Both the position numbers and the translations under genes were made by a program. Shown here piece after piece: positions 1,009 through 27,035 of a stretch of 37,954 nucleotides of DNA. How positions within the stretch are numbered: position 1 is the first letter of the stretch; each line of letters begins with the position of its first letter. Below the pieces are notes generated by a model. That model was not told the origin of the DNA. It searched no databases and saw nothing but the letters and a program-made list of their open reading frames with translations. Where the stretch lies: UHGV virus genome UHGV-0114795; one strand, written 5' to 3'. The DNA comes from a virus.

Positions 1009-1083
1009 GTCCTCTTAGTTAAATGGATATAACGAGCCCCTCCTAAGGGCTAATTGCAGGTTCGATTCCTGCAGGGGACACCA
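1009..1083 (+). tRNA. argW: tRNA-Arg (anticodon CCU)
   Basis: 75 nt read from sequence: acceptor stem GTCCTCT/AGGGGAC, anticodon loop with CCT flanked by stem AGCCC/GGGCT, T-loop GGTTCGATTCC, 3' CCA encoded. Known prophage integration target. Confidence 0.9.
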
Positions 1084-2529: not shown

Positions 2530-4455
2530 CTATAGCAATCTTATTTCTCCACCATGAACATTTATTGGCGTCATAAGAAGCGGACTCTCTACTACGACAA
2601 ACCCATTTTCATTACTTATAACCGGAGTCTTTGATTCATCAGATGTTGAAATAACCATCGCTTTATCTCCTGCCACAACACCTAACCAAAACCATGTCCC
2701 CAAGTTATGATCTATCTTCAATGCTAAAAAAATAAGCTGTGTATCAGAGTATTGTATTTGCGTTGTCCATTTTGCTCTAGTGTCTGAACCTGAAACCTCT
2801 GTAGAGACACTTGCGCCAACTGTATGTGCAGCAGAGCTACCGTTACTCATTTTGCCGTTAACAAGCTGCGGGTGGTATTTACTGGTCTGTTTGGCTTTCC
2901 CTACAACTGAACTAAGTCCTAAATCCGGGTGGTAGAAAACTATAGTCTGGTCTACTGTGCTGGCCTCTTTAGCGGATGCAGCAGGTAGTGTTGTACCGCC
3001 TGGTTTTATATCTGTTTGCCAGTGAATGTCGGAAAGGTTGTACGGAGACCCTTCGTTAAGGTCCCACCAAACTGCCCCTCCTCCAATACGGTTATTAGGC
3101 ATAATTCTTACGTTGGTATTGTCGTCGAATGCACCAAACATTTTCATACTGCTACCGTAAATCCAGCAGTTATCCAGCGTAATGTTATTTGCGCTCGTTG
3201 CTATAACCCCATACACATTGCTTTCGTTTGACTCTATGTAGCATGAATCAAACTTGATGTTATATGCACCTGCAATCCAAACACCGTGAGTACGAAAACT
3301 TTCAATACCACAGTTGAACAGCGTAAGTGCCTCTACCGCACCTTCAAACTTAAAACCTACATCACACTCTCCTGTGTGAACCGATACTAATGGCTGAATG
3401 TTGCATTCATCAGTAAAGTGATAGCGATGCAGACCAGTAGTATATGTACCATTGCACTGAAGATTGCGAAATAAAGAGTAAAAGCAGCGCTGAGTGTAAA
3501 CCAACTGCTGGACATTTACTCCAACAATATCTGTAACCTCGCATCCAAATACATGATTCCGCAAACGTAACCCCTGATAGAAATTAATCAGTGTGGCATT
3601 GCGAATTATTGTTCCTATGGTTAGATACTCTTCACCAGACTTTCCAAATACAGAAGATATAGCACCACTAGAAGCTATATAACCAGTCTCAATGAATACG
3701 TTATTTTCGTCGGAAGTATCGTCGCGGCCTACGATGCGAGCGCCCTGAAAATCGATCACTTGCACCCGACGATTAGGGAAATTAGTTTCTTCAATGTCAG
3801 ATGGAGATTCTGAAGCCAACACATAAACTTTACCGGCGATGTAATAGCTTTTCCACGGAGTGGCTACTACTTTAACACCACCTGCACGCCACGCAGCAAT
3901 CAGAGCGGCCTGAAATGCGTGTGTGTCGTCATGCTTGCTTGGGTTATCTTCTCCGTTCAATAAGTAGGCATCGCCATACGCACCAAAGTCATCTACATTA
4001 ATTTCCTGATTAAAGTAGTCAGATGCTTTTCTGGTTGCAGCATCAGCATAAGGCTTCTTAAATGAAATATAAGAAGCACCATCATCAGATGATAAGCGCG
4101 AAGAAAGTTGATCAGGGTCATACTTCAGCACATTAGGGAAATAGAACTGCTGCGATCCATACGCATCATAAACAGCCATAGAATGGCCTTGCACAGTTAC
4201 GAACTTAGCAATCTGTCCGTTATATACCGGGTAACCAGCAGCGTTAATGATGATTGGTTGCGAAACAGGAACGTGAGAGCCGTCTTCGTTCTCCACATAA
4301 ACCTGAATCTGGTTTTCGGGATTTACCGGGTCCGTGTCAATTTTACCGATATAAATTTTACCATTAGCATTTGCTTTAAACGAGCGAGCTAAAGTAAATA
4401 ACTGACTTGGTTGTGAAACAACAACGTTGTATAATTGTTCTGGCATAATAAACAT
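2530..4455 (-). CDS. Tailspike protein: P22 gp9-like N-terminal head-binding domain fused to a divergent receptor-binding domain of unknown specificity
   Basis: N-terminus ([66 protein letters not shown]) closely resembles the P22 tailspike N-terminal domain from memory; the remainder does not resemble P22 gp9. True start may be the ATG at 4446. Confidence 0.8.
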
Positions 4456-22919: not shown

Positions 22920-23065
22920 TGCGTCTTTACCTTTTAGAAAGATGAGCCTGTTCGCACAGAAAAGCCGTCCCCGAGATGGTCGCCACCATATACGGCAATT
23001 CTCAGGCTCAGCTTTCTGAAAGACTCGGGATTGTTACGCGCTGCGATGCGCGGTTTACTGCAGAT

Positions 23066-23092
23066 GTAAAAAAGCCCCGCAAATGCGAGGCT
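23066..23092 (-). terminator. Intrinsic terminator downstream of lysis cassette
   Basis: On minus strand CCUCGC-AUUU-GCGGGG hairpin (one G-U pair) followed by CUUUUUU. Confidence 0.5.
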
Positions 23093-23265
23093 AAATCCTG
23101 GTATTTGTAATGACTGGCTCTTATCTCAACGCAGCCCCTTACCGCGCGCCAGATGCTCAATATCAAGCATCAGCAATGAGATGTTTAATCTGGATTCACT
23201 CCAGAAGTGATCATCACCCTGTCTACAGAGCCAGATGTGAAGGATGATGAGTAAAATTATCGCTA

Positions 23266-23724
23266 TCATCGAAGGCATTGCGTCCTGATGTATTCCTGCA
23301 GGTAGTTAACCTGCGCGGTTATCCTGTCGATTCCACTTCTGAGACGGTAATAATTGAGTTCAGCATCTGCTGTAAGTCCTGGGTTTTCTCCATCGCCCAT
23401 GCCGCTGGCTCCGGTCGTTGACGTTGCACAGGTGGCGGCGACTTGCAGGCGCTTACGACCAGCAGAAACATCAGCACGGAGACTTTCGATAGTCGCGTTA
23501 GCATCAGCAAGCTCCTTTGTATATCTGGCATCGAGTTCTGCTACATCACGTTGACGCTTCTGCATGTCAGCGATGGTGGCGGTCGCCTGCTTCAGCTCAC
23601 TGACTTTTTTATCACGCTGTTCTTTATAGGCGATGGCGTTATCACGGTAATGATTGACCGCCCATGACAGGCAGACGATGATGCAGATAACCAGAGCGGA
23701 GATAATCGCGGTGACTCTGCTCAT
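23266..23724 (-). CDS. Rz-type i-spanin
   Basis: N-terminal TM ([23 protein letters not shown]) then coiled-coil periplasmic domain; follows the endolysin. Confidence 0.8.
23319..23504 (-). CDS. Rz1-type o-spanin lipoprotein, embedded in Rz in +1 frame
   Basis: Signal peptide with lipobox ([20 protein letters not shown]) and proline-rich mature region ([16 protein letters not shown]), entirely inside Rz. Confidence 0.7.
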
Positions 23725-24224
23725 TGTTGCCCCCACAAACAGACTTCACGCTCAATCTCACGGCGAGTCATCAGCCCTTTCCATTGCTTACCTCCAGCGT
23801 ATGTCCAACGACGTAACTGATCACATGCACCTTTGATATCGCCCTGGTTTATTTTGCTAAGAAGCGTCGATGTTCTGAAATTGCCAGCACCCACGTTGTA
23901 GACGAACGAGTAAAGAGCGCCGCGCGTTGTTTCCGGTATATCGACTTTGATGTACGGGTTAATTTGTCTGGCGACCGTGGCAAGGTCTTTATTCAGGAGG
24001 GCTTTGCATTCTGCTTCGGTATACGTTTTACCGAGCATGATGTCTTTTCCGGTGTGTCCGTGACATACAGTCCATACACCAACAATATCTTTGTATGGTA
24101 TGTAGCTGACACCTTCCAAACCATCGTTACCACTTGGTCCAGTGATTAACACAGATGCTATAGCAATAGCCCCGCCACTTATCGCCGCTATTACGCTATT
24201 TCGTAGTGCCGGTGACATTGCCAT
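23721..24224 (-). CDS. SAR endolysin (T4-lysozyme-type, GH24), phage 21 R-like
   Basis: N-terminal Gly/Ala-rich SAR segment ([19 protein letters not shown]) followed by [22 protein letters not shown]..; recalled as near-identical to phage 21 R. Confidence 0.9.
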
Positions 24225-24399
24225 TCAATCTGTCCTCGCGCTCTTTGCGCTTGTAGTACCAGTTGATGCCAAATGTGCCGACAGTACAAAGAATACCAAT
24301 GATGACAGCCCAGTCATTCAGGGAGAGAATGCCACCCATCGCAGTCAGTCCTCCGAAGCTGTAACTGAACCATTCTCTGATTTTGTCCATACGGTACAT
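24196..24399 (-). CDS. Class II holin (pinholin-like), dual-start holin/antiholin
   Basis: MYRMDK dual-start motif (Met1, Arg3, Met4) like phage 21 S; two TMDs, the first Gly-rich; overlaps endolysin start. Confidence 0.8.
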
Positions 24400-24821
24400 G
24401 CTCTACCCCTTCATTGAGGGGATTTGCTCTATTTAATTAGGAATAAGGTCGATTACTGATAGAACAAATCCAGGCTACTGTGTTTAGTAATCAGATTTGT
24501 TCGTGACCGATATGCACGGGCAAAACGGCATGAGGTTGTTAGCGCAGCCTCTTGCCACCCGCTTTCACGAAGGTCATATGTAGAAGGCCGCAGCATAACT
24601 ATCACTGATGAGTTCAGGATAACCAGTGGCTACGGCTCAGTTTGGGTTGTGCTGTTGCTGGGCGGCGATGACGCCTGTACGCATTTGGTGATCCGGTTCT
24701 GCTTCCGGCATTCGCTTAATTCAGCACAAAAGGAAGAGCGCTAGTCTACCTCTATCGATTAACGGGCTTGTGGGGCAGTATCGCCGATTCACCTAACGCT
24801 CTTCCCTTTGTGATTGTAACG

Positions 24822-24853
24822 CAAAAAGCCCCGAGCTATTAACTCAGGGCTTT
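24822..24853 (-). terminator. PR'-proximal intrinsic terminator (tR'-equivalent)
   Basis: On minus strand AGCCCUGAG-UUAAUA-GCUCGGGGCU hairpin followed by UUUUUG, about 27 to 58 nt downstream of predicted PR' start. Confidence 0.55.
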
Positions 24854-24886
24854 ATTTAACGAGTGCATTTATCCATCGTTGAGTCA

Positions 24887-24915
24887 AATTTACCCAATTT
24901 TATTCAATAAGTCAA
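24887..24915 (-). promoter_or_regulatory. Late promoter PR' with qut region (lambda type)
   Basis: On minus strand TTGACT - 17 nt - TAAATT, in sequence recalled as identical to lambda PR' (TTGACTTATTGAATAAAATTGGGTAAATTTGACTCAACGATGG). Confidence 0.7.
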
Positions 24916-24957
24916 TATCATGCCGTTAATATGTTGCCATCCGTGGCAATCATGCTG

Positions 24958-25581
24958 CTAACGTGTGACCGCATTCAAAATATTATCTGCGATTGACTCT
25001 TCTTTGTGGCATTGCACCACCAGAGAGTCATACAGCGGCTTAACAGTGCGTGACCAGGTGGGTTGGGTAAGGTTTGGGATTAGCATCGTCACAGCGCGAT
25101 ATGCTGCGCTTGCTGGCATCCTTGAATAGCCGACGCCTTTGCATCTTCCGCACTCTTTCTCGACAACTCTCCCCCACTGCTCTGTTTTGGCTATATCAAC
25201 CGCACGACCTGTACCGTGGCAATCTCTGCATCTTGCCCCCGGCGTCGCGGCACTACGGCAATAATCCGCATAAGCGAATGTTGCGAGCACTTGCAGTACC
25301 TTTGCCTTAGTATTTCCTTCAAGCTTTGCAACGCCACGGTATTTCCCCGATACCTTGTGTGCAAATTGCATCAGATAGTTGATAGCCTTTTGTTTGTCGT
25401 TCTGGCTGAGTTCATGCTTACCGCAGAATGCAGCCATTCCGAATCCGGCTTGTGATTGCGCCATCCCCATAGCAGCCATCACATCAGTACCGGAAAGAGA
25501 GTCAGAAGCCGTGGCCCGTGGTGAGTCGCTCATCATCGGGCTTTTTGGCGAATGAAATTTAGCTACGCTTTCGAGTCTCAT
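24958..25581 (-). CDS. Q: Late gene antiterminator Q (lambda type)
   Basis: 207 aa, [76 protein letters not shown]..., recalled as essentially identical to lambda Q. Confidence 0.9.
25281..25313 (+). promoter_or_regulatory. paQ-like CII-dependent antisense promoter inside Q
   Basis: TTGCGAGCACTTGC (TTGC-N6-TTGC) followed 13 nt later by TAGTAT on the strand antisense to Q; same architecture as PRE in this window. Confidence 0.55.
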
Positions 25582-26243
25582 GCGCCTTCTCCCTGTACCT
25601 GAATCAATGTGAGGTTTCCGCAGAACACTGCGCCGGTATCTATATACATCTGGTTGGCAAACTTGAGTGGTTTCACTGCTGGCGTATGACCAAAGATGAA
25701 CGTGTCCGCTCCTTTGATTTCTTTCACGATCCCGTCTTGTGAGTTGCTGATTCGTTCGCGGTTCCAGATTACCTGCTGATGATCAACTGGCTTTCCAAAC
25801 TCGTATTCGTCACAAGGATAATCGGCGTGGCAGATGACATATTTTTTACCTTTACTCACCAGTTCGATGATTAACGGAAGTTCATCTGCTTTATGGGCAA
25901 GAGCTTTAGCCAGAATTTCTTTGTCGTAATCGAGATTAAAGAACCAACTACCGCCATTAAGCAGCCAGTGATTGACGTTTCCGCGCTCTGATAAGCCATC
26001 AATCATCATTTGCTCATGGTTTCCACGTACAGCTCTGAACCAGGGGAATGTGATTAATTCCAGGCATTCGACGTTCTCTGTACCGCGATCAACCAAATCG
26101 CCCACCGAGATAAGCAGGTCTTTTTTGGTGTCGAATCCTATCGTCTCCAGTTTTTTCATCAGGTTCGTGTAGCATCCGTGCAGATCGCCAACTACCCAAA
26201 CATTTCGGTATTTGCTGCCATCAATTCTTTCGTAATAGCGCAT
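25578..26243 (-). CDS. ninI: Ser/Thr protein phosphatase, lambda NinI (orf221) type
   Basis: 221 aa from ATG at 26243 ([29 protein letters not shown]... GDLVDRG...GNHE); metallophosphatase motifs; ORF-track start 26318 is TTG-extended. Confidence 0.85.
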
Positions 26244-26427
26244 CTCTTTCACTCCATCCGCGATGAACCATGAGAACGTCGTTGACGATGGCGTGCATTT
26301 TCCCGTCTTTATCATCAACGTATTTTCTTACCGTGCCGCGACTACATTTCAGTCTGCGTGCTACTTCTGTCTGGTTTCCGTATGCTTCAACGAGCATGTC
26401 TGGAATGGTTTTTACTGAGAACGTCAT
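26221..26427 (-). CDS. ninH: NinH
   Basis: 68 aa [68 protein letters not shown], recalled as lambda NinH. Confidence 0.85.
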
Positions 26428-27035
26428 GCGGCCTCACTTCTGCTATTTCGCAGGTCTTTGAGTTTCTGTTGGTACTCTGCCTTGATCGCCTTGCACTCTT
26501 CGATAGTCCAGCGATGGCGGCTATGGTTTGATTCGATTTCGTCTACTGCTTCCTGCCCGATGCGGTTAATCAGTTCGACGCGATACGGAACGAGATTTCC
26601 GCTTTTGTGCTGGTTGCACACCACGCATTGCTTGTGAATATTGCGTTCATCAAATCGGAGTTGAGGTGCCGCAGCAGTTGTCCGGTAATGTCCGGCATCC
26701 CACTGAGCAGACGTGAGCGTTCCGCACGAGATACATGGTAAGTCGCGGTCTCTTTCTCTGATGAAGGCGTTTACGGCTTGTTGGGCTTGTTTAATCCAGT
26801 AACTGCGGGGCTTTAAGGCGAGTTTTCGAATCTTCAGTTTATCTTTCTGTTTCTGCTCCTCTCGTCGTAGTTTCTTCTCTGCTGCTTTTTCCGCTTTTTC
26901 GCGTTCTTTACTTCGTCGTTCGAGTGCTATCTTTGTTCCACACTCTGGAGAGCACCACCACTGATTAGCGAATGCAGGGTGAAACCATTCCCGACATTCT
27001 TCGTTTTTACATCGTCTTCGCGCTGGTTTAGCCAT
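26424..27035 (-). CDS. ninG: NinG (Rap recombination-associated endonuclease family)
   Basis: 203 aa, Cys-rich N-terminus ([33 protein letters not shown]); recalled as lambda NinG. Confidence 0.85.

What the first reader, a model, noticed from the sequence alone, without database searches (positions are those of the whole stretch)
24418..24957. Lambda Q and PR' retained but the 6S-RNA/tR' segment replaced by a promoter-proximal terminator
The PR' promoter and the sequence immediately upstream of the holin match lambda, but the DNA roughly 25 to 200 nt downstream of PR' differs, and a strong hairpin plus U-tract sits only about 27-58 nt from the predicted start. If this is the Q-controlled terminator, the terminated late leader RNA would be far shorter than lambda 6S RNA (194 nt). 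This raises the question of how lambda Q engagement at the pause site works with a terminator this close.
Basis: partly seen in the sequence, partly recalled or inferred. Interest (0 to 1): 0.5.

Follow-up and report, generated by a model that had tools for sequence, protein, structure and literature searches.

The report
P22-type short late-operon leader terminator
This prophage has phage lambda's late-gene switch protein Q and its promoter, followed by the short, promoter-proximal terminator that phage P22, HK97 and HK022 also carry, so it is a common and already annotated arrangement, not a puzzle.

Summary
The genes lie on the minus strand. Q (25581-24958) is 205/207 identical to lambda Q. 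PR', the Q-binding element and the first 8 transcribed bases are identical to lambda. From +9/+24 to about +150 the leader differs from lambda. A hairpin of about -19 kcal/mol followed by U5 occupies +28..+58 (24853-24823).

The arrangement is not unusual. The +9..+63 stretch is the late leader of P22, HK97, HK022, HK620, mEp213, mEp235 and Emek (92-97% identity). In the P22 record the same hairpin at +31..+59 is annotated "t late or tR'; antiterminated by gene 23 protein". It accompanies this promoter in 84 of 121 phage records. It occurs in 333 of 5426 complete E. coli genomes, against 416 for lambda's 6S body.

The proximity to the promoter is not a mechanistic problem. Q-lambda loads at the +16/17 sigma-dependent pause, and the RNA 5' end has threaded its nozzle by 15-16 nt, before any terminator base is made.

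Verdict: already known, low interest.

One by-product deserves follow-up. Directly after the terminator (24810-24727) lies a covarying structured RNA. It is the positional counterpart of lambda sRNA LPR2, is shared with tRNA arrays of phage-plasmids, and is absent from Rfam.

The parts
24958..25581 (-). Q antiterminator gene, lambda type (207 aa)
   Evidence: 205/207 identical to lambda Q and 201/207 to P22 gp23. Pfam PF03589 Antiterm, E = 2.6e-57.
24887..24915 (-). Late promoter PR': -35 TTGACT at 24915-24910, Q-binding-element spacer TATTGAATAAAATTGGG at 24909-24893, -10 TAAATT at 24892-24887
   Evidence: Identical to lambda base for base. Flagged by the promoter scan. The same stretch is annotated as PR'/qut in mEp213, HK620 and P22.
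24864..24880 (-). Transcription start (+1 = 24880), sigma-dependent pause element (-10-like AACGAT, 24880-24875) and expected pause at +16/+17 (24865/24864)
   Evidence: +1..+8 is identical to lambda. Lambda's +1 maps to base 44587 by the same sequence. Positions +9, +11, +15 and +17 follow the P22/HK97 type. Pausing itself is inferred from lambda biochemistry (PMC9388147).
24823..24853 (-). Promoter-proximal intrinsic terminator (P22/HK97-type tR' / t late): stem +28/+31..+53/+56, loop UUAAUAG, U5 at +54..+58
   Evidence: Hairpin energy -19.1 kcal/mol. z = -4.65 for the 61-nt RNA. Second strongest hairpin+T5 in the window. 92-97% identical to P22, HK97, HK022, mEp213, mEp235, HK620 and Emek. 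Annotated as a terminator in P22 at +31..+59 and in Emek.
24727..24810 (-). LPR2-like structured hairpin: outer stem 24810-24793 with 24744-24727, 14-nt junction 24792-24779, inner helix 24778-24774 with 24750-24746, conserved 23-nt loop 24773-24751
   Evidence: MFE and centroid folds predict the outer stem. Covariation: 98.6% of cells paired and 7 of 12 pairs with changes on both sides, against 21-41% paired in slid controls. The covariance model scores 87.4 bits here. It occupies the position of the lambda hairpin hit by the LPR2 northern probe.
24416..24726 (-). Distal late leader of lambda type
   Evidence: Near-identical to lambda over this stretch.
24517..24556 (-). Distal hairpin followed by GUUUUG (+325..+364), a candidate weak second terminator
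   Evidence: Energy -14.1 kcal/mol here, with one stem mismatch, against -20.8 for the lambda homologue.
24196..24399 (-). First late gene: holin (67 aa, HP1 holin family, not lambda S). A lysozyme (24224-23721) and Rz (23736-23266) follow.
   Evidence: Pfam PF16080 E = 4.4e-21, PF00959 E = 3e-45, PF03245 E = 8.7e-39. Same gene set as Emek.

Best explanation
This is the late-gene control region of a P22-like prophage, in the form found in P22, HK97 and HK022. PR' is probably constitutive, as it is in lambda. In the absence of Q, RNA polymerase starts at 24880, pauses at about +16/17 because sigma-70 rebinds the -10-like AACGAT, and then terminates at the intrinsic terminator at +28..+58. This yields an RNA of about 56-61 nt instead of lambda's 194-nt 6S RNA. 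When Q is made from the early-right operon, it binds the Q-binding element between the -35 and -10 hexamers and loads onto the paused complex with NusA. It forms a nozzle on the RNA exit channel through which the nascent 5' end threads. The terminator hairpin, transcribed only afterwards, then cannot form in the channel, so polymerase reads through into the lysis and morphogenesis genes. What is shown here: sequence identity of Q, PR', the Q-binding element and the pause element with lambda; the hairpin plus U-tract; its homology and common offset with the annotated P22 terminator; and its prevalence. What is inferred: actual termination, pausing and Q-dependent read-through in this element.
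For: Q is 99% identical to lambda Q. PR', the Q-binding element and +1..+8 are identical to lambda. The hairpin is at -19.1 kcal/mol followed by U5. It is one of only two such sites at -17 kcal/mol or lower in 38 kb, against 0.05 expected. The same sequence at the same offset is annotated 't late or tR'; antiterminated by gene 23 protein' in P22 and 'rho-independent terminator' in Emek. It is shared by HK97, HK022, HK620, mEp213, mEp235, HK106 and epsilon34. Function looks conserved where sequence is not: Sf101 carries the stem-loop inverted, and Louie carries an unrelated hairpin plus U-tract at the same place. Prevalence is 84/121 phage records and 333/5426 E. coli genomes. In the literature, lambda Q and P22 gp23 are interchangeable, a short antiterminated RNA is known for P22, and the Q torus is threaded by 15-16 nt of RNA.
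Against: There is no transcript data for this element. The P22 annotation is itself largely inferential (a TPA_inf record). The U-tract is only five U. The consensus terminator scan did not list the site. The initial transcribed region differs from lambda at +9, +11, +15 and +17. From my own knowledge of the elemental pause consensus, the G-to-A change at +17 alters a consensus base, so pause position or lifetime may differ. Other hairpins further down the leader could contribute to termination: the U-rich 3' side of the structured hairpin around 24740-24727, and 24556-24517.
Confidence: 0.86

Rival explanations
1. The proximal hairpin is only a weak or accessory stop. On this view the Q-responsive barrier that keeps late genes silent lies further downstream, either at the U-rich 3' side of the structured hairpin (around 24740-24727) or at the distal hairpin+U4 at 24556-24517.
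For: The distal hairpin is conserved with lambda. The leader is rich in structure (z = -5.2). From memory only, lambda's late leader was reported to contain tandem terminators (Luk and Szybalski 1983); that paper is not held in the library.
Against: The distal hairpin is weakened here (-14.1 vs -20.8 kcal/mol, with one stem mismatch) and has only four U. P22/HK97-type leaders lack these lambda-type distal sequences directly after the terminator, yet still carry the proximal hairpin. The proximal hairpin is the strongest intergenic terminator-like site on the transcribed strand.
Confidence: 0.08
2. Besides serving as a terminator, the roughly 57-nt RNA made constitutively in lysogens is a trans-acting regulatory small RNA. 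This would parallel StxS of Shiga-toxin phages and what has been suggested for lambda 6S RNA.
For: The RNA has a 5' hairpin, an A-rich linker and a terminator hairpin with a U tail. +1..+63 is 92-97% conserved across E. coli and Salmonella phages while the downstream leader varies. StxS arises in exactly this way (PMC7547250). Lambda 6S RNA binds Hfq and has targets (bioRxiv 10.1101/2024.10.31.621285).
Against: The conservation is already explained by qut, pause and terminator function. No Rfam family matches. No target or Hfq data exist for it. The single-stranded stretch is short.
Confidence: 0.15
3. The hairpin acts mainly as a two-way insulator. It has an A-tract upstream and a U-tract downstream, and would stop antisense transcription from the lysis region from entering Q.
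For: On the plus strand it reads AAAAAGCCCCGAG...CUCAGGGCUUUAUUU, which is also terminator-like. The Sf101 stem-loop is inverted, so there the other arm order precedes the U5 tract on the late strand.
Against: No promoter or gene on the plus strand points at it from the lysis side. Its fixed offset from PR' +1 in all relatives points to function on the late strand.
Confidence: 0.04

Closest known systems
Phage P22 P late / qut / t late (tR') region, also present in HK97, HK022, HK620, mEp213, mEp235 and Emek
   Same: The Q-type protein is the same (97-99% identity). The promoter and qut are the same apart from 2 spacer bases. The initial transcribed sequence is the same. The terminator hairpin is the same, at +31..+59 from the start.
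   Different: Downstream of GCGTT (+63) the window leaves the P22/HK97 leader. It carries instead an LPR2-like hairpin and then lambda's distal leader. The Q-binding-element spacer is the exact lambda version (TTATT...AAATT) and not the P22 version (TTTTT...AAGTT).
Phage lambda PR'-qut-6S RNA-tR'
   Same: Q is shared (205/207). PR', the Q-binding element and the pause element are identical. The last roughly 310 nt of leader before the first lysis gene are near-identical.
   Different: The 6S body (+24..+194), orf-64 and the lambda tR' hairpin are absent. The terminated RNA is about 57 nt instead of 194 nt.
StxS (74-nt sRNA made by early termination at PR' of Stx phages)
   Same: It is a short RNA made constitutively from an antitermination-controlled late promoter (PMC7547250).
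   Different: Stx phages use a different Q family and promoter. No sequence relation has been established, and no regulatory function is shown here.
Lambda LPR2 (about 63-nt Hfq-bound sRNA, lytic cycle)
   Same: The window hairpin at 24810-24727 sits at the same place, directly after the PR' terminator. It shares the outer stem with compensatory changes and identical 3' flanking sequence. The LPR2 probe maps to the lambda hairpin.
   Different: The interior is unrelated to lambda's. Here it is a conserved 48-nt core that is also found in tRNA arrays of phage-plasmids.

Membership tests
Lambda-type Q-dependent late regulatory cassette | Q protein of the lambda family (PF03589) | tested here: met
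   205/207 identity to lambda Q. PF03589, E = 2.6e-57.
Lambda-type Q-dependent late regulatory cassette | PR' promoter with the Q-binding element between the -35 and -10 hexamers | tested here: met
   24915-24887 is identical to lambda.
Lambda-type Q-dependent late regulatory cassette | Sigma-dependent pause element (-10-like sequence at +1..+6) | tested here: met
   AACGAT at 24880-24875 is identical to lambda. Pausing itself was not tested.
Lambda-type Q-dependent late regulatory cassette | Intrinsic terminator between the pause site and the late genes | tested here: met
   Hairpin at -19.1 kcal/mol plus U5 at +28..+58.
Lambda-type Q-dependent late regulatory cassette | Q- and NusA-dependent read-through of the terminator | not testable with these tools
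   This needs in vitro transcription or reporter assays.
P22/HK97-type t late (tR') | Sequence homology to the annotated P22 terminator | tested here: met
   92-97% identity over promoter plus terminator. Alignment shown.
P22/HK97-type t late (tR') | Same offset from the late RNA start | tested here: met
   P22 has +1 at 37887 and the terminator at 37917-37945, which is +31..+59. The window has +31..+58.
Lambda 6S RNA / tR' | Homologous 6S body (+24..+194) ending at the lambda tR' hairpin | tested here: not met
   There is no alignable sequence. The lambda U-run ends at +192.
Lambda 6S RNA / tR' | orf-64 overlapping the terminator | tested here: not met
   No ORF of at least 30 aa lies on the minus strand between 24606 and 24957.
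StxS-like trans-acting sRNA | Hfq binding and mRNA targets | not testable with these tools
   No RNA-protein or RNA-RNA interaction data are available for this element.
Lambda LPR2 | Hairpin directly after the PR' terminator with a homologous outer stem | tested here: met
   Alignment. L030 and L044 carry lambda's exact outer stem around the window's core.
Lambda LPR2 | Homologous interior sequence | tested here: not met
   The interiors are unalignable. The covariance model of the core finds no match in the lambda locus L001.
Any Rfam family | Match at the family's gathering score | tested here: not met
   No match with E up to 1 in 3.5 kb. A narrow scan gave only sub-threshold generic terminator hits.

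The most novel reading that the evidence does not exclude
The stretch that stands in for lambda's 6S region holds more than a terminator. At 24810-24727 it carries a modular structured RNA, with a variable long outer stem, a 5-bp inner helix and a highly conserved 23-nt loop (CCACAAGNCCGUNAAUCGAYAGA). Its copies occur downstream of late-promoter terminators in lambdoid prophages and, on the tRNA strand, inside tRNA arrays of E. coli and Klebsiella phage-plasmids. Some loci hold tandem hairpins with similar outer stems and different interiors. It may be an undescribed family of hairpin RNAs excised from a longer transcript (RNase III is a guess), with lambda's LPR2 as a positional and outer-stem relative. 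The conserved loop would then be a binding or base-pairing surface.
Probability: 0.45. Interest if true: 0.5.

Novelty: already known. Interest (0 to 1): 0.12.

Why it matters
For the finding as given, very little. It documents one more mosaic joint in a lambdoid late leader and shows that lambda's 194-nt 6S leader is only one of two common forms. It is a useful reminder for annotation: prophages with lambda-type Q mostly make a late leader RNA of about 57 nt, whose possible sRNA role, by analogy with StxS and lambda 6S, is untested. The by-product, a covarying LPR2-like hairpin shared with phage-plasmid tRNA arrays, could give the recently reported lambda sRNA LPR2 a family context and a testable processing model.

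Tried and rejected
- Rfam scans of 23000-26500 and 24700-24900 found no family at threshold.
- The consensus terminator scan did not list the hairpin. The likely cause is its stem-extension rule, so this was not taken as evidence against the site.
- ARAGORN found no tRNA in the leader.
- The hairpin core was read as a small ORF and rejected. The GTG-started frame is not preserved; the Klebsiella variant has a TGA at codon 11 (read).
- Among the local folds inside the core, the GGCG/UGCC hairpin predicted by MFE was rejected. It is not kept in the L044 variant, whereas CUGCC/GGUAG covaries.
- The genome contigs pattern scan gave one chance hit inside a coding region of a Limnobacter MAG.
- The loose 14-base pattern scan returned mostly unrelated contigs, which then served as background for the covariance model.
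- The MAFFT alignment that included the divergent L059 copy misplaced its 3' half, so pair counts are quoted only for the 12-sequence ungapped alignment.
- The older primary papers were not in the library: Luk and Szybalski 1983; Daniels et al. 1988; Roberts et al. 1976. They are cited only through reference lists or from memory.
- No pseudoknot between the 14-nt junction and the 23-nt loop was consistent across variants.

Full report
**What is there.**
The region lies between two minus-strand genes, so all features were read on the minus strand. Q runs from 25581 to 24958 and encodes 207 aa. It is 205/207 identical to lambda Q and 201/207 identical to P22 gp23, and it belongs to Pfam PF03589.

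Downstream of the Q stop codon lie a -35 TTGACT (24915-24910), a 17-bp spacer and a -10 TAAATT (24892-24887). The pairwise alignment with lambda 44460-45210 is identical from the end of Q through the promoter, the Q-binding element and the first eight transcribed bases. By that homology +1 is the A at 24880, which corresponds to lambda base 44587. The sigma-dependent pause element AACGAT is at 24880-24875.

The window then differs from lambda at +9, +11, +15 and +17. It matches again at +18..+23 and is unalignable from +24. Near-identity to lambda resumes at about 24731 and holds to the ribosome-binding region of the first late gene at about 24415.

That first late gene is not lambda S. It is a 67-aa holin of the HP1 family (PF16080), followed by a lysozyme and an Rz homologue.

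The window as a whole looks like a P22-like podovirus prophage. Its ORF sizes fit that type, and a tRNA-Arg(CCT) gene lies near one end, at 1009-1083.

**The hairpin.**
- Position: AAAGCCCUGAG-UUAAUAG-CUCGGGGCUUU at 24853-24825, with U5 at 24827-24823. This is +28..+58 from the start.
- Stability: the hairpin folds at -19.1 kcal/mol. The 61-nt RNA from +1 folds at -23.3 kcal/mol, z = -4.65, with no shuffle of 200 doing as well.
- Chance expectation: every T5 run in the window was scanned on both strands. This site is the second strongest hairpin+T5. Only two sites reach -17 kcal/mol, against 0.05 expected from block shuffles.
- The other strong site: it lies on the plus strand at about 25514-25546, inside Q. 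It corresponds to the terminator of the antisense a23/PaQ RNA annotated in P22.
- A miss by the simple scan: the consensus terminator scan did not list the hairpin. The likely reason is that three U are absorbed into A-U pairs with the upstream A-tract.

**What it is.**
BLAST of the promoter-plus-hairpin stretch against phage genomes shows that +9..+63 is the late leader of many phages. These include P22, HK97, HK022, HK620, HK106, HK140, HK542, HK544, mEp043, mEp213, mEp235, mEpX1, Emek, epsilon34 and Sf101, at 92-97% identity.

The P22 record BK000583 annotates four features:
- the promoter 'P late or PR'';
- the qut site;
- the late RNA 5' nucleotide at 37887;
- a terminator at 37917-37945, labelled 't late or tR'; antiterminated by gene 23 protein action to allow full late transcription'.

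That places the P22 terminator at +31..+59, the same offset as here. Emek annotates the same hairpin as a rho-independent terminator.

Natural variants argue for function over mere sequence inheritance:
- P22 has a different loop.
- HK022, HK106 and epsilon34 carry single stem changes.
- Sf101 carries the whole stem-loop inverted between the same A- and U-tracts.
- Phage Louie has an unrelated hairpin of -22 kcal/mol plus U4 at the same place.

Prevalence:
- Among 121 phage records with this promoter region, 84 include the proximal terminator. The lambda, DE3 and IME10 group does not.
- In 5426 complete E. coli genomes, the short-leader segment occurs in 333 and the lambda 6S body in 416.
- The exact whole leader of the window occurs in 37 of those genomes.

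The best explanation is the textbook Q cassette. PR' fires constitutively. Without Q, polymerase pauses at +16/17 and terminates at the hairpin, giving an RNA of about 56-61 nt. With Q, polymerase reads through.

The short distance is not a difficulty. Q-lambda is recruited to the Q-binding element and the paused complex, and with NusA it forms a torus in the RNA exit channel. As the RNA grows from 11 nt to 15-16 nt, its 5' end threads into, through and out of the torus (PMC9388147). The first base of the terminator stem is +28, so the whole hairpin is made after loading.

Three literature points support this:
- Lambda Q and P22 gp23 are reported to substitute for each other (PMC8022706).
- They are reported to have the same specificity (PMC2629481).
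- Short antitermination-controlled RNAs from the late promoters of 21, phi80, 82 and P22 are cited from early work (PMC7547250).

What remains inferred for this particular element is termination efficiency, pause behaviour and Q-dependence. The four substitutions at +9..+17 are shared with P22 and HK97.

**Rivals.**
- Downstream barrier: a terminator further down could be the real stop. This is unlikely as the main one, because the lambda-type distal hairpin at 24556-24517 is weakened here (-14.1 vs -20.8 kcal/mol) and has only four U.
- Trans-acting sRNA: the 57-nt RNA may have a regulatory role like StxS. This is possible but unsupported.
- Insulator: a role against antisense transcription has no promoter to act on.

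**The rest of the replaced segment.**
After GCGTT (+63) the window leaves the P22/HK97 leader. Positions 24810-24727 form a long hairpin.

In lambda, the homologous position directly after tR' holds the hairpin GGTAAGAGCA...TGCTCTTTCC. This is exactly what the northern probe for LPR2 hybridises to. LPR2 is a recently reported Hfq-bound sRNA of about 63 nt seen mainly in the lytic cycle (bioRxiv 10.1101/2024.10.31.621285). The outer stems of the two hairpins are homologous with compensatory changes, but the interiors are unrelated.

The window's 48-nt interior recurs in two settings:
- with other outer stems in lambdoid contigs;
- in the tRNA arrays of E. coli and Klebsiella phage-plasmids of about 110 kb.

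Covariation on an ungapped alignment of 12 distinct copies supports a 7-bp outer helix and a 5-bp inner helix:
- 98.6% of cells are paired.
- 7 of 12 pairs show changes on both sides.
- Slid controls give 21-41% paired.
- RNAalifold recovers both helices.

More divergent copies (L059, L127, L131) add further compensatory changes.

A covariance model scores true copies at 73-92 bits and L059 at 31 bits. Nothing exceeds 24 bits in about 0.75 Mb of unrelated viral contigs.

All 29 copies that lie within 350 nt of a tRNA gene are on the tRNA's strand. Rfam has no match.

I read this as a real structured RNA, probably excised from the late transcript. RNase III processing sites in the lambda late leader are the subject of Daniels et al. 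1988, which I know only by title. Its function is unknown.

**Verdict.**
The arrangement is the common P22/HK97 form and is already annotated in public records, so novelty is 'already known' and interest is low. The LPR2-like hairpin is the only part that merits follow-up.

Noticed in passing
window 24727-24810 (-): Structured hairpin directly after the PR' terminator. It has an 18-bp outer stem, a 14-nt junction, a 5-bp inner helix and a conserved 23-nt loop. It is the positional counterpart of the lambda sRNA LPR2 hairpin. Covariation supports it (98.6% of cells paired, 7 pairs with double changes), and it is not in Rfam.
   Followed up: partly
L044 2500-2590 and 2640-2725; L059 2478-2541 and about 2690-2745 (-); L013 2494-2556: The same conserved core sits inside tRNA arrays of E. 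coli and Klebsiella phage-plasmids, always on the tRNA strand (29/29). Some loci carry tandem hairpins that share outer-stem and flank sequence but have different interiors, as if the hairpins were cassettes.
   Followed up: partly
L019 7180-7331 (-): In this contig the terminator plus hairpin is followed by an A/U-rich stretch and its own strong terminator (GGUCGCUAAGGCGGCCUUUUUU). The P22/HK97-type leader then resumes. This looks like an inserted sRNA-gene-like module.
   Followed up: no
L009 (Sf101) and L011 (Louie), about 60-100 nt after the -35: Sf101 carries the terminator stem-loop inverted between the same A- and U-tracts. Louie has an unrelated hairpin plus U-tract at the same offset.
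   Followed up: partly
window 25514-25546 (+): This is the strongest hairpin+T5 of the window (-19.1 kcal/mol) and lies antisense inside Q. It corresponds to the terminator of the a23/PaQ antisense RNA annotated in P22.
   Followed up: partly
window 24517-24556 (-): Lambda-type distal leader hairpin followed by GUUUUG. It carries one stem mismatch here (-14.1 vs -20.8 kcal/mol in lambda) and could be a weak back-up terminator.
   Followed up: partly
window 24399-24425 (-): Lambda's leader is retained up to the small hairpin that overlaps the ribosome-binding region (here CCCCUCAAUGAAGGGG, in lambda CCCCUUAUUGGGGG). The gene behind it is a 67-aa HP1-family holin, not lambda S. The lysozyme that follows has a hydrophobic N-terminus suggestive of a signal-anchor-release endolysin.
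   Followed up: no
window 1009-1083 (+): A tRNA-Arg(CCT) gene lies near one end of the window and is probably the prophage integration site. ORF sizes further along fit a P22-like podovirus.
   Followed up: no
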